From: a virus
Direction: 5' to 3' (one strand)
DNA length: 64,000 nt
Virus record (IMG/VR): IMGVR_UViG_3300031521_000012
Coordinates: 1 to 64,000 of that record
Part shown: in pieces, positions 3,946 through 59,914 of the stretch
How the letters are laid out: each line of letters begins with the position of its first letter
Numbering within the stretch: position 1 is the stretch's first letter
The notes under the pieces: generated by a model
What the model was told of the DNA's origin: nothing
The model's database searches: none
The model's input: only the letters and a program-made list of their open reading frames with translations
Translations under genes and position numbers: made by a program

Positions 3946-3976
3946 TTGCATAACTTATTTTATTGTTGTAGATTTG
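3946..3976 (+). promoter_or_regulatory. Bacteroidota housekeeping-type promoter of the sigma gene
   Basis: TTG at 3946 and TAGATTTG at 3969-3976 (-33/-7 pattern). Confidence 0.65.
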
Positions 3977-4016
3977 TAGAATAAAGAACGACCACTAACC
4001 TTTAAAACTTACAACA

Positions 4017-4580
4017 ATGGAAACCAACAAAACAAGTTTAAATATTACTGATGTTTATAACAAGTACTATTCAGAAATTTTGTACTTAGTTACAATGAAA
4101 GTTAGAAAAGTTGAACTTGCTGAAGATTTAACTTCAGATGTTTTTATTAGAGCTTATAATCACTTGGCTAGTTTTGATAGCAACAAGTGTACTATAAAGA
4201 GCTGGTTAATTGCAATATCAAATAACGCAATTATTGATTATTACAGGTTATCACAAACCAAAACAAATATCAATTTCAGTGACTTGGCAAAGGTTAATAG
4301 CGAAAATGAAGTAATTAGTTTTGATAGCGTATCGGATTACAAAACTGATAACCTTATTAATGCTAAGGAATTTAATCACAAAATAGATGCTATCTTTAAT
4401 AGCATGAAACCAAACTACCAAAAAGTTGCTGAACTATACTTTAAAAAAGATATGAGTTACAATGATATTGCAGCAATTTGTGAAATTCCTTTAGGTAGTG
4501 TTAAGGGAATGATTAACAGGTGCAAAGTATTGTTACAAAGTAATTTACAAGCTGAAAAAGCTGAATATGGCATAAAATAA
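4017..4580 (+). CDS. ECF-type (sigma-70 group 4) RNA polymerase sigma factor
   Basis: 187 aa; region 2 AEDLTSDVFIRAY...KSWLIAISNNAIIDYYR; region 4 MSYNDIAAICEIPLGSVKGMINR. Confidence 0.93.
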   Translation: METNKTSLNITDVYNKYYSEILYLVTMKVRKVELAEDLTSDVFIRAYNHLASFDSNKCTIKSWLIAISNNAIIDYYRLSQTKTNINFSDLAKVNSENEVISFDSVSDYKTDNLINAKEFNHKIDAIFNSMKPNYQKVAELYFKKDMSYNDIAAICEIPLGSVKGMINRCKVLLQSNLQAEKAEYGIK

Positions 4581-4587
4581 GAAATAG

Positions 4588-4624
4588 AAAAGTACCTTGT
4601 GAATATAGCAAGGTACTTTTTTTT
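4588..4624 (+). terminator. Intrinsic terminator after sigma gene
   Basis: AAAAGTACCTTG-loop-CAAGGTACTTTTTTTT. Confidence 0.85.
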
Positions 4625-4632
4625 ACTATTGT

Positions 4633-4663
4633 TGTAACTTTTTACAGTTGTTAACCGTATTAT
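4633..4663 (+). promoter_or_regulatory. ECF-type phage promoter
   Basis: TGTAAC-N17-CGTATTAT; followed within ~50 nt by a terminator. Confidence 0.7.
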
Positions 4664-4709
4664 GAGTGTTCATTTTTATATTTAAGTTTAATATTATTAT
4701 TTATCACTT

Positions 4710-4740
4710 AAAAGCTATCTGTTATTCAGGTAGCTTTTTT
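4710..4740 (+). terminator. Intrinsic terminator
   Basis: AAAAGCTATCTG-TTATT-CAGGTAGCTTTTTT. Confidence 0.7.
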
Positions 4741-4773
4741 GTTTTATATAATGTTCATTTTTTATTTAAAAAC

Positions 4774-4803
4774 TGTAACTTTTTGCCTTGTCAAACGTAT
4801 TAT
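4774..4803 (+). promoter_or_regulatory. ECF-type phage promoter
   Basis: TGTAAC-N16-CGTATTAT. Confidence 0.85.
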
Positions 4804-4844
4804 AGATATAACCACTTATTATAAACCACTTAAAACATAATATC

Positions 4845-5114
4845 ATGAGCACAGTTAAGAGCAATGTACCAGTAGTAGTAAGACCTTTGTACACAATAGC
4901 AACTGAAATTCGAAAAGATTGGAGATCGAAAATGTATTTTGGTGCTGTTCCATATATCAATGCAATGTTATCATTGGATAAGCTAACTGATTATTATGGT
5001 AGTGATAGTGCCAGAACAATTGTTATTTATTTTTTGGCTAATGCTCAAACATGGAAAGGTGACAAGGCACGTACCATCAAAGCTGAATTAAATTCAATGC
5101 TGAAAAAACGCTAA
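4845..5114 (+). CDS. Small phage protein of unknown function
   Basis: ORF directly behind promoter; YFGAVPY and YFLANAQTWKG resemble a recurrent small phage family. Confidence 0.8.
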   Translation: MSTVKSNVPVVVRPLYTIATEIRKDWRSKMYFGAVPYINAMLSLDKLTDYYGSDSARTIVIYFLANAQTWKGDKARTIKAELNSMLKKR

Positions 5115-5188
5115 TAATCTGGTCAATGTACGTTGCACTGGTATATCATTGGTGCAATGTACATATAATCTATAAAATACAATGTACT

Positions 5189-5434
5189 ATGAGCACAATG
5201 CAAACATTTTATTTTAATACAGGTGTTAAGCCAGATATGAATACATATAGGCACAAAGATATAAGAATATCAAATGGTACAATAGAAATTCCAATTAATT
5301 GTGAGAATGTTCCTGATGGTGCAAAATTGGAATTTCTATGTGATGATCCTAATCTGTTTATAAATCAAGATTATATTGTTCGTAAAGCATTTAACACTAA
5401 AATGCATTCTCAATATGCATACTTTAAATTATAA
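5189..5434 (+). CDS. Hypothetical protein
   Basis: ORF 5126-5434, likely start MSTMQ at 5189. Confidence 0.65.
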   Translation: MSTMQTFYFNTGVKPDMNTYRHKDIRISNGTIEIPINCENVPDGAKLEFLCDDPNLFINQDYIVRKAFNTKMHSQYAYFKL

Positions 5435-5476
5435 TAACCAATGTACTTATATTAATTAAAAATAAAGCCTATCATT

Positions 5477-5507
5477 TGTAACATTTGATAGGCTTTATAC
5501 GTATTAT
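5477..5507 (+). promoter_or_regulatory. ECF-type phage promoter, -35 in hairpin loop
   Basis: AAAGCCTATCA-tttgtaacatt-TGATAGGCTTT then CGTATTAT. Confidence 0.85.
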
Positions 5508-5534
5508 GTATATAACCACTTAACACAATGTACT

Positions 5535-5888
5535 ATGAACAAGGTAGGAGAAATTATCAATGTACAAGAAATAACCAAAGGTTGTCGCCAGATGGATTTG
5601 ACTGACCTAATGTACGTCTTAAGAAACAATATAAGCCGTTTCTGGTCTTGGGGTAGTCATGCCTTTAGAATTGATCGTAAAGGTAATGTACGCATGTTTA
5701 GAATGGCTGTAAATGGTCGTTTTCATAGTGGTCATGTTTATATATTTCTCAATGGCTTGGACTTGTTTGATGTTTATCTTACTTCAAGTAGAGGCACTAT
5801 TAAACGCATTCAAACAGATTTGTATAATGATATGCTAACTGATTGGATTGATATTGCAGTAGAAAAGATAGGTACATATAAACACTAA
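5535..5888 (+). CDS. Hypothetical protein
   Basis: ORF directly behind promoter. Confidence 0.8.
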   Translation: MNKVGEIINVQEITKGCRQMDLTDLMYVLRNNISRFWSWGSHAFRIDRKGNVRMFRMAVNGRFHSGHVYIFLNGLDLFDVYLTSSRGTIKRIQTDLYNDMLTDWIDIAVEKIGTYKH

Positions 5889-5900
5889 ACACAATGTACA

Positions 5901-6086
5901 ATGAAAGTTAATACAACAATAAATTATAAATTTACATTCTTTAGTCGTGTTCAAAATGATAGTAAAGTTATTGAATGCAAAAGTACTAAGAGTGCCTATC
6001 AAATAGCATATAGTGTATATAAAAAAGCAAGAAAACTTTATCCATCAATATGCTTTGAGGGCATTAAAACCGAAATTATTGAATGA
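5901..6086 (+). CDS. Hypothetical protein
   Basis: Co-oriented small ORF. Confidence 0.6.
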   Translation: MKVNTTINYKFTFFSRVQNDSKVIECKSTKSAYQIAYSVYKKARKLYPSICFEGIKTEIIE

Positions 6087-6159
6087 CCATTCATTGTATC
6101 AATGAATGATTAGACAAATGAGAAGTACAAAGGTTTAATCGAATGATAAAATAAATATC

Positions 6160-6348
6160 ATGAATAAGAAATATAAATTACCACGTAAAAGAAAAAAGGT
6201 ATACATCAAAAAAGATTGGACTGGCTATTATATTAGTGCTTCACTTTCATCTGATGAGTATAAAAGAAAAGTGAATTATAAATTCCCAAAGGTCTATGAT
6301 TTTAACCTTAAAACAGGTGTTATATCAAACATTAAATCATATTGGTAG
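6160..6348 (+). CDS. Hypothetical basic protein
   Basis: Co-oriented small ORF, KLPRKRKK. Confidence 0.6.
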   Translation: MNKKYKLPRKRKKVYIKKDWTGYYISASLSSDEYKRKVNYKFPKVYDFNLKTGVISNIKSYW

Positions 6349-6375
6349 TTTTTAATTAAAAATAGTTATATCTTT

Positions 6376-6405
6376 TGTAACTTTTTGCCTTGTCAAACGT
6401 ATTAT
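6376..6405 (+). promoter_or_regulatory. ECF-type phage promoter
   Basis: TGTAAC-N16-CGTATTAT. Confidence 0.85.
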
Positions 6406-6432
6406 ATGTATAACCACTTAATTAATTCAGTC

Positions 6433-6747
6433 ATGAGCAAGTTAACATACAGTCAGATCGTAAAGCTACAAAAAGCCAATGGCTATGATCAAATACAAGC
6501 TAATATCAATTCAGGTTTAGCTTGGAAGCTAGAAGGTTCATATGGTAGAGCAGCAATGAATTTATTAGTGTCAGGTGCTTGTATGCTACCAAAGGTAGTA
6601 AGAATTGATGCTTATGGTAATAGAGTACCTGCAAGAGATATGCTTAAAGCAGGCACACAAGGCACGTTTCAAAACAGTCAGGACTTTTGGCAGAAAGTGT
6701 ATGAAGGTGAAGTAATATTAAATTTTGATAATGATGATAATGAATAA
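6433..6747 (+). CDS. Hypothetical protein
   Basis: Start moved to ATG 6433 because the track start lies inside the promoter. Confidence 0.8.
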   Translation: MSKLTYSQIVKLQKANGYDQIQANINSGLAWKLEGSYGRAAMNLLVSGACMLPKVVRIDAYGNRVPARDMLKAGTQGTFQNSQDFWQKVYEGEVILNFDNDDNE

Positions 6748-6756
6748 CTAATAATT

Positions 6757-6834
6757 GTTAAGTAGTGTTCATAGGGTAAGAACACCATCGAAAGAGATGG
6801 AGGTACTTTGGTTCGATTCCAAAGCTTAACACTA
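6757..6834 (+). ncRNA. tRNA-like RNA with non-canonical anticodon arm
   Basis: GTTAAG/CTTAAC acceptor, GTGTTC/GAACAC D-arm with GG, TTTGG-TTCGATT-CCAAA T-arm; CCATC-GAAAGA-GATGG 6-nt loop; ends ACTA. Confidence 0.6.
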
Positions 6835-6925
6835 ATAAAATACTTTGTTGTAAGTTTGGGGTAATGTTCCGCTTAATCAGATCGGCATTACCCCTGTTTT
6901 TTTATTTAAAAATAGTTACTATTTT

Positions 6926-6956
6926 TGTAACATTTGATGGTAGTTAAACGTATTAT
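6926..6956 (+). promoter_or_regulatory. ECF-type phage promoter
   Basis: TGTAAC-N17-CGTATTAT; drives non-coding unit A. Confidence 0.85.
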
Positions 6957-6960
6957 AGAT

Positions 6961-7037
6961 ATACAGCGGAGCTACACTAGGGGTAACAGTAATCCATACC
7001 TGCAATAGAGTGTAAGTTTATATTCAATCTAAATAAG
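6961..7037 (+). ncRNA. Conserved non-coding unit A (candidate sRNA or origin transcript plus 19-bp box)
   Basis: ATACAGCGGAGCTACACTAGGGGTAACAGTAATCCATACCTGCAATAGAGTGTAAG; similar copies at 14877 and 19025. Confidence 0.6.
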
Positions 7038-7097
7038 ATACGTATATTAGCGACCATTAATTATTTTTAATTAAAATAACATTTTTTATTTAAAACT

Positions 7098-7127
7098 TGT
7101 AACTTTTTGCCTTGTCAAACGTATTAT
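7098..7127 (+). promoter_or_regulatory. ECF-type phage promoter
   Basis: TGTAAC-N16-CGTATTAT. Confidence 0.85.
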
Positions 7128-7167
7128 AGATATAACCACTTAATATTAACCATTAAAACTTAAGATC

Positions 7168-8055
7168 ATGAGAACCAAGAAAATTAAAACAGGTGCAATT
7201 GAATGCGAAATGAAAGATTTGTTTTTTCCTGTTGAATTGCGTGATGAACTTATGCCCTCTAATAAAGAGTATAGCAAAAGAGTTATTGGCTTAATTAATG
7301 GAGCAGACTTTTTGCTTAACCAGTGTAGTGATGTTTATACCTTGGTAAAAAACATTGATATCTTTCCAAAGATCGAAGATGCTTTAAATGCAGCAGGAAT
7401 CGAATTTTCAGTATCTTACAGGCATATTAATCATGTTCGTTTCTATGCAGACTATAAAATTACTGACAGTCGTTATGCTTACACTATGCAAGGTACTGAT
7501 GATATGATTTGTCCAATGATATCAGTTCATCACAGCTACAATGGCTTAACCAAGTACAAAATTATCTTTGGCTATTTCAGACTTGTTTGTTCCAATGGCT
7601 TAACAATTCCAGTTGCTGAAATGGCACAATTCAATTTGGTTATTGTTGGTAAGCATACTGACAGCATTGAAGGTTCATTCAAAAAGCTTGAAAGCATGTT
7701 ACAATACTTTGTTACTGATGCTGAATATATACTCAATAGCATAACAACAAAGTACGAAGCTTTAAATCAAAAGGTTGTGGCTCAAGCTAATTTTAAAACC
7801 AGACTTGAAGAGGTTTTGGAAGCTTCAAAAATCACAATGGTAGATAACAACAAGTTCAATACTCTTAACGATATCACAATGAGAATCGAAGAGGAAGCAA
7901 ACAACAGTCGTTTAGGCTACAATGGCAAAGTAACTGACTTTCTTATCTACAATGGTATAAATCAATACCTGAACGATGATAACCGTAATATCGTTACTCC
8001 TGAACTCCGTATGGAAAAAGATGCTAAGGTATTAGAATATATGTTAGCAAACTAA
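7168..8055 (+). CDS. DUF932-like protein
   Basis: HSYNG...FRLVCSNGL...KHT motif pattern, 295 aa. Confidence 0.7.
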   Translation: MRTKKIKTGAIECEMKDLFFPVELRDELMPSNKEYSKRVIGLINGADFLLNQCSDVYTLVKNIDIFPKIEDALNAAGIEFSVSYRHINHVRFYADYKITDSRYAYTMQGTDDMICPMISVHHSYNGLTKYKIIFGYFRLVCSNGLTIPVAEMAQFNLVIVGKHTDSIEGSFKKLESMLQYFVTDAEYILNSITTKYEALNQKVVAQANFKTRLEEVLEASKITMVDNNKFNTLNDITMRIEEEANNSRLGYNGKVTDFLIYNGINQYLNDDNRNIVTPELRMEKDAKVLEYMLAN

Positions 8056-8059
8056 AAGT

Positions 8060-8107
8060 AATAAGGGAGTGATAACCAATGTACACTATCACTCCCTTAT
8101 TGTTTTT
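8060..8107 (+). terminator. Intrinsic terminator with CAATGTAC in loop
   Basis: AATAAGGGAGTGATA-accaatgtacac-TATCACTCCCTTATT-gttttt. Confidence 0.8.
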
Positions 8108-8130
8108 AATTAAAAATAGTTACTATATTT

Positions 8131-8161
8131 TGTAACAAAAGCCTATCGTTAAACGTATTAT
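8131..8161 (+). promoter_or_regulatory. ECF-type phage promoter
   Basis: TGTAAC-N17-CGTATTAT. Confidence 0.85.
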
Positions 8162-8188
8162 AAGTATAACCACTTAAAACATTCAGTC

Positions 8189-8743
8189 ATGTTAAAAACA
8201 GTATTTACAGTCGATGAAAGAAACAAAGTTTATGAACTTTCTTTGGTTCACTATAAAAAACGTTTAGTAAAAGGAAACCAATTTGGAATATGCTTTTCAA
8301 TATTGAAAGTACTTGAATATTTATATCCTAATGAATGTTCAGATCGTAATCATTTTAATTGTGATGAATTATCTTTGTTTCCCGAAATCTACAAACATAA
8401 GTCAAAACATAATAGAGACTATTGGTATAGTATTAAAACTAAATATGGTATTGCTAAAAGAATAGCAATCTTCGACCAAGCTATTAAAGAAACTGAACAA
8501 ACTGTTGTAATATTCAGAGCTGAAAGGTCAGGTCAATATAAAATGAGTATCTATGCTTTGTTTCCTTATGTAGCTTATACAGATAAGCTATGTAGTTGTT
8601 ATGCACACGTAGGACAGCATTCTGGAGCTAACTATGACTATTGTATTAAAAACAGTGTTCCTGCCTTACCAGAAGAGTATAGCGACCTGAAAGCTGAACT
8701 TGAAAGTATTGGTTATAACCTGAAAATCCAAAAAAGAAAATAA
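8189..8743 (+). CDS. Fusion: family-A paralogue domain plus second small phage domain
   Basis: N-half FGIC...FPEIYKHK...YWY...KRIAIFDQAIKETE; C-half CYAHVGQHS...ELESIGY. Confidence 0.8.
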   Translation: MLKTVFTVDERNKVYELSLVHYKKRLVKGNQFGICFSILKVLEYLYPNECSDRNHFNCDELSLFPEIYKHKSKHNRDYWYSIKTKYGIAKRIAIFDQAIKETEQTVVIFRAERSGQYKMSIYALFPYVAYTDKLCSCYAHVGQHSGANYDYCIKNSVPALPEEYSDLKAELESIGYNLKIQKRK

Positions 8744-8746
8744 TTT

Positions 8747-8777
8747 TGTAACATATTGGGTGCAATGTACGTTATAT
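8747..8777 (+). promoter_or_regulatory. ECF-type phage promoter (variant -10)
   Basis: TGTAAC-N17-CGTTATAT. Confidence 0.65.
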
Positions 8778-8803
8778 ATATTGCACCCTTAATATATAAA
8801 GCT

Positions 8804-9058
8804 ATGAGCAAAACAATTAGGCATTCAGCAATACCAAGAAACAGGCATAAAAATAAAAAGAATAGATCAACCGATAAGTTCTTTGGTTATCGTGATGGCT
8901 ATACTGATGGTATGAGTAATCCCAAAAAGGGCATTGACTTTGTTAACTATGGCTATCCAAGTGATTATGATTTTAGAACCAAAGCTGAAATCATGCAGAA
9001 AGATGAAGCTAACGACCTGAAAGATATTTTAAATGAATTGATTGAAAGTGAATGTTAA
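8804..9058 (+). CDS. Hypothetical protein
   Basis: Likely start MSKTIRH downstream of promoter. Confidence 0.7.
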   Translation: MSKTIRHSAIPRNRHKNKKNRSTDKFFGYRDGYTDGMSNPKKGIDFVNYGYPSDYDFRTKAEIMQKDEANDLKDILNELIESEC

Positions 9059-9084
9059 CATATTTTAATTAAAAACATAAAGCT

Positions 9085-9429
9085 ATGACAAAAACAGGTA
9101 AGTTCACTAAGAAAGAAAAATATAAAATATATTGTACTGCATTAGCAATGTACAAAGCAAATTCCAATAAAGTATATTGGTCTTCATGGGGATTATGCGA
9201 AGCTATTGAACGAGCATTGAAGTCTATATATGGATATTCATACTTTGTGCAATATTCACCTTATTATCATGATATGATTGAGTTTTATCCTGAAATTGCT
9301 AAGCATAAGCCATTAAATAATTATAAGGATGGTTCATATTGGTTTGAAGTCAATTGTGAAGATGGTTATGATAAAAGAGTGACAATTCTTGAGCAGGCTA
9401 TTGAGAAAACTAAGCCAGTAGAGAAGTAA
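9085..9429 (+). CDS. Family-A paralogue
   Basis: WGLC...YPEIAKHKP...YWF...KRVTILEQAIEKTK. Confidence 0.85.
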   Translation: MTKTGKFTKKEKYKIYCTALAMYKANSNKVYWSSWGLCEAIERALKSIYGYSYFVQYSPYYHDMIEFYPEIAKHKPLNNYKDGSYWFEVNCEDGYDKRVTILEQAIEKTKPVEK

Positions 9430-9478
9430 TATTTTAATTAAAAACAGTTAATTATTTTTGAAATAAACCCTATCATTT

Positions 9479-9509
9479 TGTAACATTTGATAGGGTTTAT
9501 CCGTATTAT
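9479..9509 (+). promoter_or_regulatory. ECF-type phage promoter, -35 in hairpin loop
   Basis: AAACCCTATCA-ttttgtaacatt-TGATAGGGTTT then CGTATTAT. Confidence 0.85.
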
Positions 9510-9536
9510 AAGTATAACCACTTAACACAATGTACT

Positions 9537-9809
9537 ATGACAATGTTTAGCCACAATCCCGACAAGTTAATTTACACAGGTAAGAGTAAAGTTAAAAGAT
9601 ACCAATGTACGTTCATACGTTCAGGCAGACGTGATTTAGAAACAGTAACTATTGATCAGATGGATAAGGTTCAAGCACGTAGCCAGTGTGCCAAGGAATT
9701 TGGGAGGCTGGATTACTTTAATGCAGTTGATATACATGAACCAATTAAAATTGAAACTGATATTAAAGATGGCTATGGAAACATAGTTAAGGTAGGTGAC
9801 AAAATTTAA
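9537..9809 (+). CDS. Hypothetical protein
   Basis: ORF behind promoter. Confidence 0.75.
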   Translation: MTMFSHNPDKLIYTGKSKVKRYQCTFIRSGRRDLETVTIDQMDKVQARSQCAKEFGRLDYFNAVDIHEPIKIETDIKDGYGNIVKVGDKI

Positions 9810-9813
9810 TAAT

Positions 9814-10188
9814 ATGAAAAAGAGTAGAGTCATTGCTAACTATGGTATTGAGAGAAACAAAAAGCCATTAGCAAATATCATATACACTATTGAGGTTGTT
9901 TCACCTACTCAATTAAAACCAAGTACTGACTTGTCTAAGCTAGAAGAGTTTAAGTTCAAAGATTTGGGCTACATAACAATAACAAGTGAATATGAAGGTA
10001 AGGAAGAGAGTCGTGCTTGGAATGGATTTAGAACACCAAAGTATATTCAAACCTTATTAGGCGAAAAGCAATGGTCTAAATTTTGTCAGGGTAAAAGAAA
10101 GTTTGTTATTCAGCGTAGGTATGATGGTAAAAACATTAAACTTGTTAAGCAACAAATATTTAATCAAATATTAAATGATAACTTGTAA
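9814..10188 (+). CDS. Hypothetical protein
   Basis: ORF 9796-10188, likely ATG 9814. Confidence 0.75.
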   Translation: MKKSRVIANYGIERNKKPLANIIYTIEVVSPTQLKPSTDLSKLEEFKFKDLGYITITSEYEGKEESRAWNGFRTPKYIQTLLGEKQWSKFCQGKRKFVIQRRYDGKNIKLVKQQIFNQILNDNL

Positions 10189-10214
10189 CCTTTTCTACTT
10201 AAGAAACGTATTAT
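10184..10214 (+). promoter_or_regulatory. ECF-type phage promoter
   Basis: TGTAAC-N17-CGTATTAT overlapping upstream stop. Confidence 0.85.
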
Positions 10215-10240
10215 AGGTATAACCACTTAATCATAAAGCT

Positions 10241-10663
10241 ATGGAAAATAACATTAAACTAACCTTAGTTAAAACAGTTAACTATGATTTAAATCCATTC
10301 GGAAAGTTCTTAATTAAAGATATTGCATTTGATAAGAGAGCAACCAATGCTAATCCCAAAACGTTGTTATTCAACGTAATAACTTTCGATGAAAGAGCTG
10401 GTATGCCATATGATGAAGACCAGTATAATATGATAGTCAAGTACATGAAAAAGAATAAGACTGACATATTAGTAAGTAGAGATACTTACAATACAAATAC
10501 CTACTATACTCTTATGGGTAAAAATCTTGTTGAGATCACACATCCCAAACTTCGCATATATCAAAACTTTATTGAGAGTCATTTCTTAAAAGATGCACCA
10601 ATTGATGAAGCTTGGCAAAAGTTTGATGCTTGGTATAAAGCCAGTAAGTATGTCATTTTTTAA
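10241..10663 (+). CDS. Hypothetical protein
   Basis: ORF behind promoter. Confidence 0.8.
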   Translation: MENNIKLTLVKTVNYDLNPFGKFLIKDIAFDKRATNANPKTLLFNVITFDERAGMPYDEDQYNMIVKYMKKNKTDILVSRDTYNTNTYYTLMGKNLVEITHPKLRIYQNFIESHFLKDAPIDEAWQKFDAWYKASKYVIF

Positions 10664-10705
10664 TTAAAAACAGTTGTAATTAATTATAATTTAAACCCTA
10701 TCATT

Positions 10706-10736
10706 TGTAACATTTGATAGGGTTTAAACGTATTAT
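10706..10736 (+). promoter_or_regulatory. ECF-type phage promoter, -35 in hairpin loop
   Basis: TTAAACCCTATCA-tttgtaacatt-TGATAGGGTTTAA then CGTATTAT. Confidence 0.85.
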
Positions 10737-10763
10737 AGATATAACCACTTAAAACCTATTGTC

Positions 10764-11102
10764 ATGACAAAGAAAGAATTTAAAGAACTTGCAAGTGTAC
10801 ATATGTACGGCAAAAGAAGTAATGGCATGATAGCTATTTACTATGACTGGAAACAAGGTGAAATAGATGGTAATATTTTTGTTGGCTTTAAGTATGCTAT
10901 CTTCACAAGGCAGGGAAACATAACACAAGTTAAATTATTAAAGTTATTCTATGAATTGATTTTTGAGGTTAGCGAAGTTGATTTGCCATACTATGTAACA
11001 TTTGTAAAAGTAAGCGATATTAACAGATTTAAAGTTCCTATCACAAGTAACGGTTTAAATCATTTAGATAATATATATAATGAAGCTGAAAATCATTACT
11101 AA
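10764..11102 (+). CDS. Hypothetical protein
   Basis: ORF behind promoter. Confidence 0.8.
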   Translation: MTKKEFKELASVHMYGKRSNGMIAIYYDWKQGEIDGNIFVGFKYAIFTRQGNITQVKLLKLFYELIFEVSEVDLPYYVTFVKVSDINRFKVPITSNGLNHLDNIYNEAENHY

Positions 11103-11126
11103 TAATTAAAAATAAACCCTATCATT

Positions 11127-11157
11127 TGTAACATTTGATAGGGTTTAAACGTATTAT
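11127..11157 (+). promoter_or_regulatory. ECF-type phage promoter, -35 in hairpin loop
   Basis: AAACCCTATCA-tttgtaacatt-TGATAGGGTTT then CGTATTAT. Confidence 0.85.
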
Positions 11158-11185
11158 AAGTATAACCACTTAAAACCATAAAGCT

Positions 11186-11401
11186 ATGAAGACTTATTAT
11201 TATGACCTGCATGTTTTTTTCAGTAGAAATGATGGCTATTCAATTCCAATTGCACTTGAAAGCATTGATGAATTGTCCGAATATGAAGTAATTGAACTTG
11301 CAATTGAAATGGATTTATTTCAGGAAGATGGTGACCAAAATCAAGTCGATTATGTATTGAATATTGATGAAGTTGAATATAACCAAATGAAGGGAATTTA
11401 A
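11186..11401 (+). CDS. Small acidic protein
   Basis: ORF behind promoter, D/E-rich. Confidence 0.8.
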   Translation: MKTYYYDLHVFFSRNDGYSIPIALESIDELSEYEVIELAIEMDLFQEDGDQNQVDYVLNIDEVEYNQMKGI

Positions 11402-11423
11402 TCTAAAAATAAAGCCTACTATT

Positions 11424-11454
11424 TGTAACATTTAGTAGGCTTTATCCGTATAAT
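11424..11454 (+). promoter_or_regulatory. ECF-type phage promoter, -35 in hairpin loop
   Basis: AAAGCCTACTA-tttgtaacatt-TAGTAGGCTTT then CGTATAAT. Confidence 0.85.
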
Positions 11455-11482
11455 ATGTATAACCACTTAAAACCATAAAACT

Positions 11483-11755: not shown

Positions 11756-11792
11756 GCTATGACAAATCATTTTTAATTAAAAACTGTAAGCT

Positions 11793-11978: not shown

Positions 11979-12005
11979 ACTATTTTAAAAATAAACCCTA
12001 CTAAT

Positions 12006-12036
12006 TGTAACTTTTAGTAGGGTTTAAACGTATTAT
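12006..12036 (+). promoter_or_regulatory. ECF-type phage promoter, -35 in hairpin loop
   Basis: AAACCCTACTAA-ttgtaactt-TTAGTAGGGTTT then CGTATTAT. Confidence 0.85.
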
Positions 12037-12063
12037 AGATATAACCACTTAACACTTAAAATC

Positions 12064-13326: not shown

Positions 13327-13357
13327 TGTAACATTTGACTGGCTTTAAACGTATAAT
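13327..13357 (+). promoter_or_regulatory. ECF-type phage promoter, -35 in hairpin loop
   Basis: AAAGCCAGTCA-ttgtaacatt-TGACTGGCTTT then CGTATAAT. Confidence 0.85.
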
Positions 13358-14068: not shown

Positions 14069-14098
14069 TGTAACTTTTAACCAAGTCAAACGTATTAT
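14069..14098 (+). promoter_or_regulatory. ECF-type phage promoter
   Basis: TGTAAC-N16-CGTATTAT. Confidence 0.85.
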
Positions 14099-14502: not shown

Positions 14503-14506
14503 AGCT

Positions 14507-14841: not shown

Positions 14842-14872
14842 TGTAACATTTAACCCTACTTAAACGTATTAT
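14842..14872 (+). promoter_or_regulatory. ECF-type phage promoter
   Basis: TGTAAC-N17-CGTATTAT; drives non-coding unit B. Confidence 0.85.
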
Positions 14873-15986: not shown

Positions 15987-16547
15987 ATGAATGAAATTTG
16001 GAAACCAATTGAAGATTACCTAGGCTACTATGAAGTATCTAATTATGGTAATGTACGTAGCTTAAAGAGAAAATTTGCTAATGGTCGAATATTAAAACCT
16101 GCAACAAACAAATATGGATATTTACAAGTAGGTTTATGTTTTGAAAGTAAACTGAGTAGCTATACGGTTCATTCCTTAGTTGCAAAAGCATTTATACCTA
16201 ATCCAGAAAATAGACCTACTGTTAATCACAAAGATGGAATTAAATCAAATTGTCACTACTTAAATCTTGAATGGGCTACTAAATCTGAACAAGCAATACA
16301 TTCATTAAGAACAGGCTTGAGAGTAATGCCTGAAAATTGGAAAGGTAAATTTGGTTCTAAGCATGGAGCAAGTAAATATGTTATTAAGCTATCAATGTAC
16401 GATGAATATATTTGTGAATATGGCTCAATGATTGAAGCTGCAAATATCAATAATATTGATGCTGGTCAAATAACAAATGTATGTAAAGGAAATAAAAAAA
16501 CAGCAGGTGGATTTAAATGGAAATATAAAGCAATTGTTGTAACATAA
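15987..16547 (+). CDS. NUMOD4-HNH homing endonuclease with C-terminal NUMOD1-like domain
   Basis: EIWKPI...YEVSNYGNVRS, VNHKDGIKSNC..NLEW, CKGNKKTAGGFKWKY. Confidence 0.9.
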   Translation: MNEIWKPIEDYLGYYEVSNYGNVRSLKRKFANGRILKPATNKYGYLQVGLCFESKLSSYTVHSLVAKAFIPNPENRPTVNHKDGIKSNCHYLNLEWATKSEQAIHSLRTGLRVMPENWKGKFGSKHGASKYVIKLSMYDEYICEYGSMIEAANINNIDAGQITNVCKGNKKTAGGFKWKYKAIVVT

Positions 16548-16568
16548 TACCACCAATGTACGTATAAT
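16538..16568 (+). promoter_or_regulatory. ECF-type phage promoter
   Basis: TGTAAC-N17-CGTATAAT. Confidence 0.8.
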
Positions 16569-16873: not shown

Positions 16874-16904
16874 TGTAACTTATTACCCTACTTATACGTA
16901 TTAT
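16874..16904 (+). promoter_or_regulatory. ECF-type phage promoter
   Basis: TGTAAC-N17-CGTATTAT. Confidence 0.85.
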
Positions 16905-18137: not shown

Positions 18138-18167
18138 TGTAACCTTTTGCCTTCTCAAACGTATTAT
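18138..18167 (+). promoter_or_regulatory. ECF-type phage promoter
   Basis: TGTAAC-N16-CGTATTAT; precedes structured non-coding region. Confidence 0.85.
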
Positions 18168-18989: not shown

Positions 18990-19020
18990 TGTAACATTTA
19001 CCCCTACTTAAACGTATAAT
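18990..19020 (+). promoter_or_regulatory. ECF-type phage promoter
   Basis: TGTAAC-N17-CGTATAAT; drives non-coding unit C. Confidence 0.85.
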
Positions 19021-21645: not shown

Positions 21646-21676
21646 TGTAACATTTGCCTATACTTAAACGTATAAT
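21646..21676 (+). promoter_or_regulatory. ECF-type phage promoter
   Basis: TGTAAC-N17-CGTATAAT. Confidence 0.85.
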
Positions 21677-23072: not shown

Positions 23073-23103
23073 TGTAACATTTAGTGGTAGTTATACGTAT
23101 AAT
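23073..23103 (+). promoter_or_regulatory. ECF-type phage promoter
   Basis: TGTAAC-N17-CGTATAAT. Confidence 0.85.
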
Positions 23104-40408: not shown

Positions 40409-40439
40409 ATTATACGTATGAGAGTATGAAAAGGTTACA
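40409..40439 (-). promoter_or_regulatory. ECF-type phage promoter
   Basis: TGTAAC-N17-CGTATAAT on minus strand. Confidence 0.85.
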
Positions 40440-46333: not shown

Positions 46334-46364
46334 ATAATACGTAAAAGTATAGCAAAAGGTTACA
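46334..46364 (-). promoter_or_regulatory. ECF-type phage promoter
   Basis: TGTAAC-N17-CGTATTAT on minus strand. Confidence 0.85.
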
Positions 46365-51819: not shown

Positions 51820-51850
51820 ATTATACGTATGAACCGTATGAAATGTTACA
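51820..51850 (-). promoter_or_regulatory. ECF-type phage promoter
   Basis: TGTAAC-N17-CGTATAAT on minus strand. Confidence 0.85.
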
Positions 51851-52448: not shown

Positions 52449-52479
52449 ATTATACGTATATGTAGGTATAAATGTTACA
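52449..52479 (-). promoter_or_regulatory. ECF-type phage promoter
   Basis: TGTAAC-N17-CGTATAAT on minus strand. Confidence 0.85.
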
Positions 52480-54809: not shown

Positions 54810-55157
54810 TTAAACGTTGTTTTTGATTCGTGTACTTTTCTTAAATGTGAAATTGTCATCGAATGATTCACTATAAGCTGCATGATCGAACTCTACATCC
54901 CATCCTTGCTTACGATAAATATCTTCAAAATCCAATAGCTTCTTATCGTATAAATTTCTTTCAATCCCCTTTCTCATGTGTGGGTCAACAGTAGCCAAAT
55001 ATCTACTAACAACTTCTTTTAGTTTAAAATTAGCTGATGTGCCATTCCAACGTTCAACAATTAGTTCGTTGACTGCTTGAATAATTCCATCTGGAATTAG
55101 TTTGCTCTTTTCAGATGCAACATCATTAGGACTTATCGGCTGGATTTTCTCTGACAT
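54810..55157 (-). CDS. Hypothetical phage protein
   Basis: PISP...IP..IIQAVNELI...LDFEDIYRKQGW.V.FD. Confidence 0.8.
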   Translation of the reverse strand: MSEKIQPISPNDVASEKSKLIPDGIIQAVNELIVERWNGTSANFKLKEVVSRYLATVDPHMRKGIERNLYDKKLLDFEDIYRKQGWDVEFDHAAYSESFDDNFTFKKSTRIKNNV

Positions 55158-55193: not shown

Positions 55194-55224
55194 ATTATAC
55201 GTTTGAACCTATGAAAATGTTACA
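55194..55224 (-). promoter_or_regulatory. ECF-type phage promoter
   Basis: TGTAAC-N17-CGTATAAT on minus strand. Confidence 0.85.
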
Positions 55225-55729: not shown

Positions 55730-56275
55730 TTATACCACATTAAGTGTAACTGTTTTGGTAACTGTCATTGTTGCAATAGGCTGAATTTCATCGGGCTTAA
55801 TCATAGCAGTAAAACCACCTGATTGATAAAAATCAACTTCCTGACCATTAGCATCGTACTTGCCGTCCTTTAGCCTTTTACAAAAAACATGATGCCCACT
55901 AAAAGAATAGTCACCACTACCACCCCCATCATATTTAGTGTCTAACACGACAAATGCGCCTGCTTCAACTATGAATTCTTCAGTAGCACTAGGGCTTGCA
56001 ACCACACTATCAATAAAGTAATTAACAGTATCTAATGATACATCATACCCTAGATTAGACTTGAATGCTAAGACAATATCTGATGCTACATTCGTCTTTT
56101 CTTTAGTAATATCAATGCTTGTTTTGATTGTAATACCAACAACAATACCCGACTTAGCTAATTTAGTACTAAGTTTTCTATTATCATAGATAAACTTTGA
56201 TGGAAGTTCTGTGTAAACATCCATTCCATCTTGTAGTAAAATTACATCACCTACCTTTAATATTTTATGGCTCAT
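55730..56275 (-). CDS. Hypothetical phage protein
   Basis: DGGGSGD...GHHVFC...FYQSGGF. Confidence 0.8.
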   Translation of the reverse strand: MSHKILKVGDVILLQDGMDVYTELPSKFIYDNRKLSTKLAKSGIVVGITIKTSIDITKEKTNVASDIVLAFKSNLGYDVSLDTVNYFIDSVVASPSATEEFIVEAGAFVVLDTKYDGGGSGDYSFSGHHVFCKRLKDGKYDANGQEVDFYQSGGFTAMIKPDEIQPIATMTVTKTVTLNVV

Positions 56276-56298: not shown

Positions 56299-56329
56299 AT
56301 TATACGTATGAACCTATACAAAAGTTACA
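56299..56329 (-). promoter_or_regulatory. ECF-type phage promoter
   Basis: TGTAAC-N17-CGTATAAT on minus strand. Confidence 0.85.
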
Positions 56330-57568: not shown

Positions 57569-57569
57569 T

Positions 57570-57863
57570 TTATTTTGAATCCATTATGATATTAATTAAG
57601 GCATTGGCTATTGCTTCAATATTATCTTCCTTAAATTTTTCACCCTCTGGTGATATATTCCAAAACATAAATCCTTCTTGCTTTTCAATAACCTCCATTT
57701 TTTCAATTTCAGCTAATGCAGTATCAATATCATCTTTATATGAAACAATAATTGTTGCACCTATCTGAATCACGCCATATTCATCCTTAAATAAATACCC
57801 TAATAATTCCATAGGTAGGTTAGCATAGAATTTAGCCTTATAGTAAATTTCTTTTGCAGTCAT
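57570..57863 (-). CDS. Hypothetical protein
   Basis: Co-oriented ORF. Confidence 0.7.
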   Translation of the reverse strand: MTAKEIYYKAKFYANLPMELLGYLFKDEYGVIQIGATIIVSYKDDIDTALAEIEKMEVIEKQEGFMFWNISPEGEKFKEDNIEAIANALINIIMDSK

Positions 57864-57866
57864 AGC

Positions 57867-58307
57867 TTAATAAATTAGTTTATATGCAATATACATTAAT
57901 ACCAAATGTAATGTGTTATCAGTTAAAGCGTATGTATACGCTTTAAATCCGCCCTCTAGTGCATCATTCAAATTAATTTCGGGTTTATCATCAGGCATAA
58001 AATTTAGCTTATTGTTTTTATACCAATCATTTTTAGTTAAGAAATCTTTTAATCCACTGCCTTTGATATGGTGCATATAAGTCTCACCAAGTGAGTACTT
58101 ATCGATAAAAAAGTGTGACAAAAATACGACAATTATCCATATAAAATCAAAGTTTCCCATGAATAAGCATACTGCAAATGTATATAACATACAATGAATA
58201 ATGCATGCAATATATCCCTCAAGACTATTCTTGGTCTTATTGTGTGCCATGTAGTCTGTTTGGAAGAGGTAATCACCCACCAAATGCCCTAAAAATAACT
58301 CAAACAT
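57867..58307 (-). CDS. DUF3307-like membrane protein
   Basis: HLVGDYLFQT...H...SHFFID...DNTLH. Confidence 0.8.
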   Translation of the reverse strand: MFELFLGHLVGDYLFQTDYMAHNKTKNSLEGYIACIIHCMLYTFAVCLFMGNFDFIWIIVVFLSHFFIDKYSLGETYMHHIKGSGLKDFLTKNDWYKNNKLNFMPDDKPEINLNDALEGGFKAYTYALTDNTLHLVLMYIAYKLIY

Positions 58308-58318
58308 AATGATTGTTT

Positions 58319-58708
58319 TTAAATATGTTTACAAATCGATTTTAATTCTTCCCATGTAGGTTTTGTGCCTTTAGGTACGAAAAATTCAGTATATTCTTCG
58401 TCATATTCATCAGTTAAATAAGGCTTGCCATCTACTAGTTTAAGATACATGCCATCAAATGGTGCACCATCAGTAATAAAATGACCAATGCTTGAAGAAC
58501 AAGAAAGAAATGGATTAAACTCAGCAAGTTCTTTTATCCAGAATTCAGTCATATCAAACCAATCCCTAACAAAATTTCCAGAATAAAATGTTTTTGATTC
58601 TTGTCTTTCAGAAGTGCCTTTTATGAAGAAAAGTGAAATTTCTACACCTTTATAGTTCAAATCTTTTTTTCTGCTGAATTCTTCGTAGTTAATTCTAACG
58701 ACTGCCAT
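58319..58708 (-). CDS. Hypothetical protein
   Basis: ORF behind promoter. Confidence 0.75.
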   Translation of the reverse strand: MAVVRINYEEFSRKKDLNYKGVEISLFFIKGTSERQESKTFYSGNFVRDWFDMTEFWIKELAEFNPFLSCSSSIGHFITDGAPFDGMYLKLVDGKPYLTDEYDEEYTEFFVPKGTKPTWEELKSICKHI

Positions 58709-58722
58709 AATAGTTTTTTATT

Positions 58723-58753
58723 ATTATACGTATAACAACAACTATTTGTTACA
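58723..58753 (-). promoter_or_regulatory. ECF-type phage promoter
   Basis: TGTAAC-N17-CGTATAAT overlapping the end of the upstream gene. Confidence 0.8.
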
Positions 58754-59032
58754 AATTTCTGGTAATAATTTTTCCAATGAATCTTCATAAGAAAATACAA
58801 TATTCATTCTTTCGACTTCATTTGATTTAATTGCTGCATCAAAGTTAGCTTGCGTTGTTCTACCAAATTCTTCACTCTTGCCGAAGAAATATATTGTATT
58901 GGTTTTTCTATCAACATAGAACCTACCACCACCACTGACATTATTTTCTTTTCTTGGGTCAATCAGTTTATAATGATAATCAACATTGCCCATGAGTAAT
59001 ACGCCATGATTTATTAAAAATTTAGCTGCCAT
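58742..59032 (-). CDS. Hypothetical protein
   Basis: H...GGGRF...FGKSEEFG. Confidence 0.75.
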   Translation of the reverse strand: MAAKFLINHGVLLMGNVDYHYKLIDPRKENNVSGGGRFYVDRKTNTIYFFGKSEEFGRTTQANFDAAIKSNEVERMNIVFSYEDSLEKLLPEICNK

Positions 59033-59036
59033 TATG

Positions 59037-59678
59037 TTATTTTTTTAAATTATTATAAATTTCAATTTCATTATCAAGCATTACCATTCTTAGTTCAGCA
59101 GTATCAACACCAAAAAAATAATCAGGATTTATTGTCTTACCTTCTTCTTGATCACCAAGCATAATAACAATGCCCTTTTTAGTCGATTTCACAATTTCCC
59201 TTATGAAAGCAAAATTATCATCAAATGAATATGACCTAACAGAAATTCCCATTATGTTTTTCGGTTTATTGATCTCAACAATGGGTAATTCATTTAAAAA
59301 CATATCTGTTTTTTGATCAATAGGCAGCATTATATTATATTTAGGGTTAATTGTATCTGTATCAATATCATACGTAAATGTTGGGTGAAATATGAAACGA
59401 ATCTTAGTAATAGGAATATTATTATCTAACAATAAATTTCTGTTTTTAAGTATCAACTCTTTTTGATATGGTGTTAATTCTTTATCACCTATTTGGTGCT
59501 CTCTATACACATGCATAACTTCTTGTTGCTGTTTATACATGGCTTCTATTTCAGTAGCGTTTATGTTTATTTTTTTCGAGAAAATTTTAGCCCATATAAA
59601 TTCAACGAATTTATTAACAGACCTGTAAAGTGCTAAGCAAATTACAATAATAACGAGTAATATGATCATTGAATCCAT
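59037..59678 (-). CDS. Membrane-anchored hypothetical protein
   Basis: N-terminal TM segment. Confidence 0.8.
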   Translation of the reverse strand: MDSMIILLVIIVICLALYRSVNKFVEFIWAKIFSKKININATEIEAMYKQQQEVMHVYREHQIGDKELTPYQKELILKNRNLLLDNNIPITKIRFIFHPTFTYDIDTDTINPKYNIMLPIDQKTDMFLNELPIVEINKPKNIMGISVRSYSFDDNFAFIREIVKSTKKGIVIMLGDQEEGKTINPDYFFGVDTAELRMVMLDNEIEIYNNLKK

Positions 59679-59883
59679 GATGATTAGTTTTTAATTAATA
59701 ATACTTTTTAACTCTGGTTTTCTTACTGAAGCGTCTTTTTCTTGTAATTACTTTACGAATATCGAAACAAATATCCAATATTATGATAAATAAAACAATC
59801 ATAACCATTATGAATATAACCAATGTCATTGATTTATATATTATTGATAACATTAATACTGTTTCCATTATGCTTTTTTCTTA

Positions 59884-59914
59884 TTAATACGTATGAGAAG
59901 CCCAAAAGGTTACA
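59884..59914 (-). promoter_or_regulatory. ECF-type phage promoter
   Basis: TGTAAC-N17-CGTATTAA on minus strand. Confidence 0.8.

What the first reader, a model, noticed from the sequence alone, without database searches (positions are those of the whole stretch)
3946..59914. Phage-encoded ECF sigma factor with a visible 35-promoter regulon (host sigma -> phage ECF sigma cascade)
Seen: 35 copies of TGTAAC-N16/17-CGTATwAT (25 on + from 4633 to 23073, 10 on - from 34171 to 59914). All are co-oriented with the local genes and sit at gene junctions; the first lies just past the terminator of an ECF sigma gene (4017-4580). The sigma gene and the two leftward genes lack the motif and carry TAnnTTTG instead. 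Established: AAC/CGT is the hallmark -35/-10 pattern of ECF sigmas such as B. subtilis SigW/SigX, and TAnnTTTG is the Bacteroidota housekeeping -7 box. Inference: host RNAP first makes the phage ECF sigma, which then redirects RNAP to a dense regulon of mostly one- to three-gene units. No anti-sigma is evident.
Basis: partly seen in the sequence, partly recalled or inferred. Interest (0 to 1): 0.85.

Follow-up and report, generated by a model that had tools for sequence, protein, structure and literature searches.

The report
Jumbo-phage ECF sigma promoter regulon
A giant uncultured phage of Bacteroidota from peat carries dozens of near-identical ECF-type promoters behind its own ECF sigma gene; this is a known phage strategy on a large scale, but the host's own genes use the same promoter and the phage has a second sigma, so which sigma reads the array is not settled.

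Summary
TGTAAC-N16/17-CGTATWAT occurs 33 times exactly in the window (0.01 expected), plus one near-exact copy. The 168-kb contig holds 41 copies, all between 4.6 and 84.6 kb, intergenic and co-oriented with the next gene. Gene 4017-4580 is an ECF-type sigma. It has a Bacteroidota housekeeping-type promoter (TTG-N20-TAGATTTG) and a terminator just before the first motif copy.

Three things change the reading:
- A second ECF sigma lies outside the window, at 108.2-108.8 kb. A third promoter class (aGTATTTAT, no -35 box) sits in front of late genes.
- All three promoter classes and both sigmas are conserved in related 300-350-kb phages. In six of these the sigma1 orthologue heads the promoter array.
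- Flavobacteriia use the same motif in front of their own rpoD and Band-7 genes, so the phage promoter copies a host ECF class.

Best reading (about 0.6): host sigma-A makes sigma1, which drives the early/middle regulon. Sigma2 probably drives late genes.

This scan found the same system before on other phage DNA. It is a new member of a known kind (phiEco32 gp36, SPO1, T4 gp55). No transcript data exist.

The parts
3946..3976 (+). Host housekeeping-type promoter of sigma1 (TTG-N20-TAGATTTG, 41 nt before the ATG)
   Evidence: same box position in relatives
4017..4580 (+). sigma1, ECF-type sigma factor, 187 aa
   Evidence: best solved relative is B. subtilis SigW, E 1.7e-11
4586..4622 (+). Intrinsic terminator of sigma1 (15-bp stem plus T run)
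2260..2267 (-). TATCTTTG -7 box, 50 nt before the UvrD-like helicase gene 727-2217
3216..3223 (-). TATCTTTG -7 box, 57 nt before gene 2570-3166 (conserved divergent neighbour of sigma1)
4633..4663 (+). ECF-type promoter; short non-coding transcript ending at terminator 4710-4738
4774..4803 (+). ECF-type promoter for 4845-5114
   Evidence: orthologue in G002 also has it
5477..5507 (+). ECF-type promoter for 5535-5888; -35 box in the loop of a 13-bp hairpin
6376..6405 (+). ECF-type promoter for 6406-6747
6926..6956 (+). ECF-type promoter for a conserved ~80-nt non-coding segment
7098..7127 (+). ECF-type promoter for DUF932 gene 7168-8055
8131..8161 (+). ECF-type promoter for 8189-8743
9479..9509 (+). 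ECF-type promoter for 9537-9809; hairpin cassette
10184..10214 (+). ECF-type promoter for 10241-10663
10706..10736 (+). ECF-type promoter for 10764-11102; hairpin cassette
11127..11157 (+). ECF-type promoter for 11186-11401; hairpin cassette
11424..11454 (+). ECF-type promoter for 11483-11755; hairpin cassette
12006..12036 (+). ECF-type promoter for 12064-13293; hairpin cassette
13327..13357 (+). ECF-type promoter for 13381-13776; hairpin cassette
14069..14098 (+). ECF-type promoter; small ORFs or non-coding DNA downstream
14842..14872 (+). ECF-type promoter for a conserved ~80-nt non-coding segment
15069..15098 (+). ECF-type promoter for GP88-family gene 15121-15918
16538..16568 (+). ECF-type promoter for 16632-16871
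16874..16904 (+). ECF-type promoter for 16905-17402
18138..18167 (+). ECF-type promoter; 393 nt without an ORF downstream
18990..19020 (+). ECF-type promoter for a conserved ~80-nt non-coding segment
19194..19223 (+). ECF-type promoter for rIIA-like gene 19266-21584
21646..21676 (+). ECF-type promoter for rIIB-like gene 21730-22959
23073..23103 (+). ECF-type promoter; last of the + block, heads an operon running to about 27.4 kb
34171..34201 (-). ECF-type promoter; heads a ~6.6-kb operon of small genes (34147 down to 27518)
35445..35475 (-). ECF-type promoter for 35160-35420
40409..40439 (-). ECF-type promoter for 39994-40383
46334..46364 (-). ECF-type promoter for 45854-46150
51820..51850 (-). 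ECF-type promoter for 51646-51795
52449..52479 (-). ECF-type promoter for 52074-52412
55194..55224 (-). ECF-type promoter for 54810-55157
56299..56329 (-). ECF-type promoter for 55730-56275
58723..58753 (-). ECF-type promoter for 58319-58708
59884..59914 (-). Near-exact copy (ends TTAA) for 59695-59868
35907..35937 (-). Host housekeeping-type promoter (TTG-N20-TATCTTTG) for 35530-35886, inside the ECF-promoter region

Best explanation
The window is the left part of a 168-kb fragment of a jumbo phage of about 300-350 kb. The phage is T4-like, with rIIA/rIIB and no RNA polymerase of its own, and infects Bacteroidota. Its transcription runs in at least three tiers.

1. Host sigma-A holoenzyme reads a few TTG-N19-21-TAnnTTTG promoters. 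One of them makes sigma1 (4017-4580). Another, outside the window, makes the primase-sigma2 operon.
2. Sigma1 is an ECF-type sigma with no anti-sigma. It loads host core polymerase onto TGTAAC-N16/17-CGTATWAT promoters: 34 in the window and 41 on the contig. These promoters drive small early/middle units: many small ORFs, rIIA/rIIB, DNA ligase, homing endonucleases and several small non-coding transcripts. Seven units are compact cassettes in which the previous unit's hairpin holds the -35 box in its loop.
3. Late and virion genes use a -10-only motif, aGTATTTAT, most likely read by sigma2.

The ECF promoter is the same sequence that Flavobacteriia place before their own rpoD and Band-7 genes. 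Sigma1 therefore looks like a phage-owned, unregulated counterpart of a host SigW-like ECF sigma.

Shown: the motifs, their placement, their conservation, and the identities of the sigmas. Inferred: which sigma reads which class, and the timing.
For: Motif statistics and placement:
- 33 exact copies against 0.01 expected.
- 42 of 43 loose-pattern sites are intergenic and co-oriented.
- The motif is all-or-none: 40 perfect copies and only about 4 intergenic copies with 1-2 mismatches.

ECF hallmarks: AAC, a T-tract beside the -35 box, and CGTA, as in B. subtilis SigW (tGAAACnTTTt...CGTA; PMC5758882). SigW is also sigma1's best solved relative.

Conservation in relatives:
- Related genomes hold 17-62 copies each, against 0-2 for the reversed control.
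- The promoter class is kept at orthologous genes between G000 and G002: ECF-ECF 9 of 14, late-late 11 of 14.
- The sigma1 orthologue heads a + strand array of 7-19 sites starting just after its stop in six distinct phages.

Why sigma1 rather than sigma2:
- Sigma1 keeps the canonical ECF recognition helix P-x-G/N-x-V-K-x-x-I-x-R and a nearly constant linker. Sigma2 has a non-canonical helix and a linker of very variable length, which fits a -10-only promoter.
- Degenerate motif copies lie upstream of sigma1 in 4 of 7 genomes but upstream of the primase-sigma2 operon in only 1 of 13.
- The host ECFs nearest to the phage sigmas are much closer to sigma1 (E 1e-14 to 1e-25 for the four full-length ones) than to sigma2 (E 1e-5 to 1e-12).

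Host-type promoters:
- The host-type promoter before sigma1 is kept in relatives.
- A conserved host-type promoter lies before the primase-sigma2 operon in 11 of 14 loci.

No multisubunit RNA polymerase was found in four genomes of the clade, three of them at least 91% complete.
Against: - There are no transcript data. No RNA run holds this DNA.
- Both sigmas and both phage-private motif classes occur in every complete relative, so co-occurrence cannot separate sigma1 from sigma2.
- The exact motif is a host promoter class: it lies before rpoD in 5 of 5 Flavobacteriia and before Band-7 genes. A host ECF sigma could read the phage promoters, alone or as well.
- G000 sigma1 has no motif copy upstream, so there is no autoregulation in this phage.
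- The recognition-helix and linker arguments are inference from ECF structures, not tests.
- The host is inferred from promoter type only.
Confidence: 0.6

Rival explanations
1. A host ECF sigma reads the array. This would be the sigma that reads the identical TGTAAC-N16/17-CGTATAA promoters before host rpoD and Band-7 genes. The phage sigmas would then have other targets, or only reinforce the host sigma.
For: - The exact motif lies 27-58 nt before the RpoD-family gene in 5 of 5 Flavobacteriia, and in 13 of 120 loci from the collection scan. It also lies before HflK/Band-7 genes.
- This matches the SM6 sigma-ECF class of F. psychrophilum (PMC9723704).
- 41 of the 80 listed bacterial hits are Bacteroidota.
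Against: - Host ECF sigmas are normally held by anti-sigmas and induced only under stress. A phage that depends on one for 40-70 promoters would be hostage to the host's state.
- Every complete relative keeps a sigma1 orthologue exactly at the head of the array.
- The host genomes hold only a handful of such sites, no more than the reversed control at 11 specified bases.
Confidence: 0.13
2. Sigma2 (108.2-108.8 kb, outside the window) reads the TGTAAC class. Sigma1 then reads the aGTATTTAT class or something else.
For: - Sigma2 is also ECF-type: TIGR02937 70.4 bits.
- It is made from a conserved host-type promoter, so it would be available early.
- It co-occurs with the motif in all complete genomes.
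- The two -10 elements share a GTAT core.
Against: - Sigma2 has a non-canonical region 4 helix, and its linker length varies widely among orthologues. That fits poorly with a rigid 16/17 spacer.
- It sits among replication genes, far from the array.
- The host ECFs nearest to the phage sigmas resemble sigma1 far more than sigma2.
- Sigma1's best solved relative is SigW, which reads AAC...CGTA.
Confidence: 0.12
3. The repeats are not promoters. They would be a mobile or structural repeat: a terminator cassette, a binding site for a regulator, or a recombination site.
For: - Seven copies are embedded in perfect 11-14-bp hairpins.
- Several spacers are identical between copies, which suggests duplication.
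Against: - Only the two boxes and their spacing are conserved. Spacers differ across the 41 copies and across phages.
- Orientation and distance to the ATG are strict.
- The same boxes precede orthologous genes in phages whose proteins are 40-60% identical.
- The same boxes also precede host rpoD.
Confidence: 0.04

Closest known systems
Coliphage phiEco32 gp36 (and the sigma of Salmonella phage 7-11) with their middle/late promoters
   Same: A phage-encoded small sigma-70-family protein is made from a host-type early promoter. It then redirects host core polymerase to a phage-wide set of near-identical promoters (PMC12276001; PMC8948821).
   Different: - phiEco32 promoters centre on a -10-like AATGTA, and gp36 needs the co-factor gp79. 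No gp79-like partner was found here.
- The promoter here is a textbook bipartite ECF promoter in 40-70 copies.
- The host is Bacteroidota and there are two sigmas.
- Sequence relatedness to gp36 was not tested.
B. subtilis SigW (ECF01) and its promoters
   Same: SigW is the best solved-structure relative of sigma1 (5wuq, E 1.7e-11). Its promoter, tGAAACnTTTt-spacer-CGTA, shares the AAC, the T-tract and the CGTA with the phage motif (PMC5758882).
   Different: - SigW is cellular, held by the anti-sigma RsiW, and autoregulated.
- Sigma1 is viral, has no anti-sigma, and has no motif copy upstream in this phage.
- NCBIfam SigW scores are far below the equivalog cut-off (65 against 209 bits).
Flavobacterium psychrophilum SM6 (sigma-ECF) promoter class
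   Same: SM6 is a host promoter class with a CGT box at -10 that drives Band-7 proteins and an ECF/anti-sigma pair (PMC9723704). Here the exact phage motif was found before Band-7/HflK genes and before rpoD in Flavobacteriia.
   Different: The host has a handful of such sites; the phage has 41 or more on half a genome. The sigma that reads SM6 in the host has not been identified.
Bacillus phage SPO1 (gp28, gp33/34) and T4 gp55 late transcription
   Same: A temporal cascade in which phage sigmas replace the host sigma. The late class here is -10-only, like T4's TATAAATA read by gp55 (established knowledge; PMC13401047 abstract; PMC7824862).
   Different: - Both sigmas here are ECF-type.
- Both appear to be made from host-type promoters, so the scheme is not a strict relay.
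- No gp55 or gp33 homology was shown.

Membership tests
ECF (group 4) sigma factors: sigma1, 4017-4580 | Only sigma-2 and sigma-4 domains; no regions 1.1 or 3 | tested here: met
   187 aa. Pfam Sigma70_r2 residues 14-77 (46.8 bits) and r4_2 residues 122-168 (23.9 bits on the protein, 26.4 in the six-frame search). TIGR02937 covers residues 13-176 at 75.5 bits against a cut-off of 42.9.
ECF (group 4) sigma factors: sigma1, 4017-4580 | Cognate promoter with AAC at -35 and CGT at -10 | tested here: inconclusive
   Such a promoter class is present in 41 copies next to the gene. The link between this protein and this motif rests on synteny in six phages and on sequence arguments. It was not tested by assay.
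ECF (group 4) sigma factors: sigma1, 4017-4580 | Co-transcribed anti-sigma factor (common, not universal) | tested here: not met
   The gene ends at its own terminator. The neighbours have no anti-sigma domain in Pfam or PHROGs.
ECF (group 4) sigma factors: sigma1, 4017-4580 | Positive autoregulation from its own promoter type (common) | tested here: inconclusive
   G000 has no copy upstream; the best candidate has 4 mismatches. Four of the 7 sigma1 genes examined have a copy with 2 or fewer mismatches, against 19% of random windows.
SigW equivalog (NF007223 / TIGR02948) | Score above the curated equivalog cut-off | tested here: not met
   65.0 bits against 209, and 54.2 against 243. Sigma1 is SigW-like, not SigW.
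Bacteroidota housekeeping promoter (TTG / TAnnTTTG) before sigma1 | -7 box TAnnTTTG with a TTG 19-21 nt upstream, at a conserved position | tested here: met
   TTG-N20-TAGATTTG at 3946-3976. Exact or one-mismatch boxes lie 47-50 nt before the ATG in 5 of the 7 sigma1 genes examined. The class is conserved before the primase-sigma2 operon in 11 of 14 loci. The start site itself was not mapped.
phiEco32 gp36-type phage sigma system | Sequence homology to gp36 and a gp79-like co-factor | not tested
   Only functional resemblance is claimed. Both phage sigmas fall in the broad phrog_1740 'RNA polymerase sigma factor' family.

The most novel reading that the evidence does not exclude
Sigma1 is a captured, anti-sigma-free copy of a conserved SigW-like host ECF sigma whose natural targets include the host's own rpoD. 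By making it, the phage fires 40-70 private promoters and at the same time switches on the host's ECF stress regulon, including more housekeeping sigma for its own host-type promoters. A second, divergent ECF sigma with a degenerate region 4 has become a -10-only late sigma, a functional analogue of T4 gp55 that arose inside the ECF family.
Probability: 0.3. Interest if true: 0.65.

Novelty: new member of a known kind. Interest (0 to 1): 0.45.

Why it matters
This clade of uncultured Bacteroidota jumbo phages is widespread in peat, lakes and other samples. Its whole transcription programme can be read from sequence: three promoter classes and two private sigmas.

If the assignments hold, the clade gives a clean, very stringent sigma/promoter pair for Bacteroidota, where genetic tools are scarce. 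It also gives a case of a virus copying a host stress-sigma regulon.

The idea itself, a phage sigma redirecting the host polymerase, is classical. This scan has met the same system on other phage DNA before.

Tried and rejected
- RNA evidence: no RNA holder is listed for 4001-14000, so no reads were laid.
- Near-DNA search in annotated phages: no match.
- Protein search of sigma1 and sigma2 in annotated phages: only distant (<33%) hits, to crAss-like 'sigma-W' genes and a few others.
- Single-protein search for sigma1 in IMG/VR found nothing. An alignment of orthologues was needed.
- Co-occurrence as a way to separate sigma1 from sigma2 failed, because all complete relatives have both.
- Spacer length (17 dominant in G000, 16 in G002) showed no clean link to sigma1 linker length.
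- Looking for the host ECF that reads the motif through autoregulation:
  - The best host homologues of sigma1 have no motif upstream.
  - Only three ECF genes among 120 loci carry the exact motif.
  - At one mismatch or fewer, two of the 30 ECF loci examined (L430, L441) carry a copy upstream of the sigma gene.
  - The host reader stays unidentified.
- tRNA and Rfam scans of the window: nothing.
- The conserved divergent neighbour 2570-3166: no family and no usable atlas match.
- The bare TAnnTTTG count is not enriched.
- Multisubunit RNA polymerase in the clade: none found.

Full report
WHAT IS THERE

The window is the first 64 kb of a 167,971-bp linear IMG/VR virus contig with 30.7% G+C. 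CheckV rates it about 51% complete.

TGTAAC-N16/17-CGTATWAT matches exactly 33 times, against 0.01 expected. Twenty-four matches are on the + strand (4633-23103) and nine on the - strand (34171-58753). A 34th copy at 59884-59914(-) differs only in its last base.

On the whole contig there are 41 copies, all between 4.6 and 84.6 kb and none in the remaining 83 kb. The motif is all-or-none: 40 perfect copies against about four intergenic copies with one or two mismatches.

With the looser GTAAC-N16/17-CGTAT, 42 of 43 sites are intergenic and co-oriented with the next gene, although only 9.5% of the contig is non-coding. The ATG usually follows 14-42 nt after the motif. A T-tract follows the -35 box. 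In the + block a conserved leader, aGATATAACCACTTAA, follows the -10 box.

THE SIGMA GENE

Gene 4017-4580 encodes a 187-aa ECF-type sigma: Sigma70_r2, r4_2, and TIGR02937 at 75.5 bits against a cut-off of 42.9. Its best solved relative is B. subtilis SigW.

It is preceded by TTG-N20-TAGATTTG at 3946-3976. This is the Bacteroidota housekeeping promoter type (PMC9723704). The gene ends at a strong terminator, 4586-4622, ten bases before the first motif copy. No anti-sigma domain is detectable nearby.

A second ECF-type sigma, sigma2, lies at 108,180-108,800(-) behind a primase-like gene. It has 206 aa and scores 70.4 bits on TIGR02937.

A third motif, aGTATTTAT(a)..AAA, sits 20-27 nt before the ATG of 21 genes. 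Eighteen of them lie in the 92-161 kb part, and the motif has no conserved -35 box. That part holds the lysozyme, the giant polyvalent protein and other late genes (earlier notes e1-5644438).

A few host-type promoters (TTG-N19-21-TAnnTTTG) lie before sigma1, the primase-sigma2 operon, a neighbouring 527-aa gene and a few others.

RELATIVES

Sigma2 led to 28 IMG/VR loci in contigs of up to 349 kb. Each complete genome has exactly one sigma1-group gene (30-48% identical to each other) and one sigma2-group gene (47-70% identical).

GTAAC-N16/17-CGTAT occurs 41, 62, 31, 17 and 39 times in five of these genomes, against 0-2 for the reversed control. In the complete 322-kb genome G002 the ECF-type sites fill 120-276 kb. 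The late motif fills the complementary part.

Between G000 and G002, orthologous genes whose proteins are 30-75% identical keep their promoter class: ECF-ECF 9 of 14, late-late 11 of 14, host-host 3. There is one ECF/late swap, at a mobile GIY-YIG gene.

In six distinct phages the sigma1 orthologue sits at the head of a + strand array of 7-19 sites that begins right after its stop. None has a + strand site in the 10 kb upstream, except L066 with one.

The primase-sigma2 operon has a conserved host-type promoter, TTG-N19-21-TATATTTG, in 11 of 14 loci. An exact or one-mismatch -7 box lies 47-50 nt before the ATG in 5 of the 7 sigma1 genes examined, G000 included.

No multisubunit RNA polymerase was found in four genomes of the clade. 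The clade therefore uses the host enzyme, as described for 'group 2' jumbo phages (PMC7824862).

WHICH SIGMA READS THE ARRAY?

Co-occurrence cannot tell, because both sigmas are core genes of the clade. The arguments for sigma1 are indirect:
- Position. It heads the array in every relative.
- Promoter type. The motif is the SigW type (AAC, T-tract, CGTA; PMC5758882), and SigW is sigma1's closest solved relative.
- Protein features. Sigma1 orthologues keep the canonical ECF region 4 helix and a nearly constant linker, which suits a rigid bipartite promoter. Sigma2 orthologues have a different, strongly conserved helix and a low-complexity linker of very variable length, which suits a -10-only promoter.
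- Possible autoregulation. Degenerate copies of the motif lie upstream of sigma1 in 4 of 7 genomes, against 19% of random windows. The same is true for only 1 of 13 primase-sigma2 upstream regions.

THE HOST USES THE SAME PROMOTER

A scan of bacterial genomes for the exact motif returned 120 loci, and 41 of the 80 listed are Bacteroidota.

Clustering the downstream ORFs gave three groups:
- 13 Flavobacteriia loci have the motif about 27 nt before a 287-aa protein.
- 6 Flavobacterium loci have it before a 301-aa membrane protein.
- 3 loci have it before an ECF sigma gene.

The 287-aa protein is the RpoD-family housekeeping sigma (304 bits). A neighbouring family of about 325-aa proteins that also carries the motif is HflK/Band-7-like. 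In five Flavobacteriia genomes examined whole, all five carry the motif before rpoD, and several carry it before Band-7 genes. This matches the SM6 sigma-ECF class of F. psychrophilum.

The phage promoter is therefore a copy of a host ECF promoter class. This strengthens the rival that a host ECF sigma reads the array.

It also gave one more test. Each of the five genomes has a single stand-out homologue of the sigma1 profile, at 83-101 bits against 59-76 for the next best. This homologue is SigW-like (118 bits). The four whose proteins were recovered full-length are far closer to the sigma1 group (E 1e-14 to 1e-25) than to sigma2 (E 1e-5 to 1e-12).

The two ECF genes that carry the exact motif upstream (L285, L366) have their best hit in the sigma1 group, although G000's own sigma1 scores below sigma2 for L366 and not at all for L285. 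Whichever host sigma reads the class, the sigma1 group is on balance the nearer phage homologue. The host reader itself was not identified.

VERDICT

The sites are real ECF-type promoters (about 0.93). They define the early/middle regulon of a three-tier programme that is conserved across a clade of Bacteroidota jumbo phages.

Sigma1 is the most likely reader (about 0.6). A host ECF sigma acting alone (about 0.13) and sigma2 (about 0.12) are the live rivals. Nothing has been shown at the RNA level, and no RNA run holds this DNA.

The principle is classical: phiEco32 gp36, SPO1, and T4 gp55. This scan has already met the same system on other phage DNA. The class is 'new member of a known kind' and the interest moderate.

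Noticed in passing
window 3822-26056, + strand: The octamer CAATGTAC occurs 25 times, all on the + strand and all inside the sigma1-adjacent + block (2.8 expected). Its internal ATG is the start of three ORFs (5126, 8765, 24107) and lies 7 nt before three others. In G002, 10 of 13 copies lie on the + strand in the orthologous block. It may be an RNA-level signal, such as a translational operator or an RNase site in early mRNAs.
   Followed up: partly
window 5455-5500, 9457-9502, 10684-10729, 11105-11150, 11402-11447, 11984-12029, 13305-13350: Seven promoters are fused to perfect 11-14-bp hairpins whose loop is the -35 box TGTAAC. The stems differ between copies by compensatory changes. These are terminator-promoter cassettes reminiscent of T4 PeSL elements.
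   Followed up: partly
window 6957-7040, 14873-14956, 19021-19104: Three copies of a conserved ~80-nt non-coding segment, each directly behind an ECF-type promoter and followed by another promoter. This is a candidate small-RNA family. There is no Rfam match and only weak structure support.
   Followed up: partly
window 4664-4738: The first ECF-type promoter drives a ~75-nt ORF-less transcript that ends at a terminator. A similar promoter-small RNA-terminator unit lies just upstream of the sigma1 orthologue in L066.
   Followed up: no
window 3380-3460 and 3479-3648: In the 850-bp divergent region next to sigma1 there is an alternating purine-pyrimidine tract, followed by 4.6 copies of a 36-nt iteron-like repeat (TTATTTATATACAGTCTAAATAAG...). 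A related word recurs in the three small-RNA candidates. This may be an origin or a regulator-binding array.
   Followed up: no
window 2570-3166 (-): A 198-aa protein of unknown family is transcribed divergently from sigma1. It is 65% identical and syntenic in G002, so better conserved than sigma1 itself (42%). It could be a partner of the sigma switch.
   Followed up: partly
G000:C1 92-161 kb (outside the window); also window 47981-49168: The late motif aGTATTTAT lies 22 nt before the ART-PolyVal ADP-ribosyltransferase gene, inside the early region. This placement is conserved in G002, which suggests a virion-packaged enzyme like T4 Alt.
   Followed up: no
Flavobacteriia loci L394, L396, L402, L405, L408: The housekeeping sigma gene (rpoD family, 287 aa) of five Flavobacteriia has an ECF-type TGTAAC-N16/17-CGTATAA promoter 27-58 nt before its ATG. 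This is a conserved host circuit that I did not find described in the papers read.
   Followed up: partly
window 15987-16547; L158:15456-16361; L158:4627-6747: Mobile elements lie inside the regulon: an HNH/NUMOD4 endonuclease, a GIY-YIG/NUMOD1 endonuclease, and an RNA-ligase-like gene interrupted by an intein with a LAGLIDADG domain. A TnpB/Cas12f-like gene lies at L159:16983-18356.
   Followed up: no
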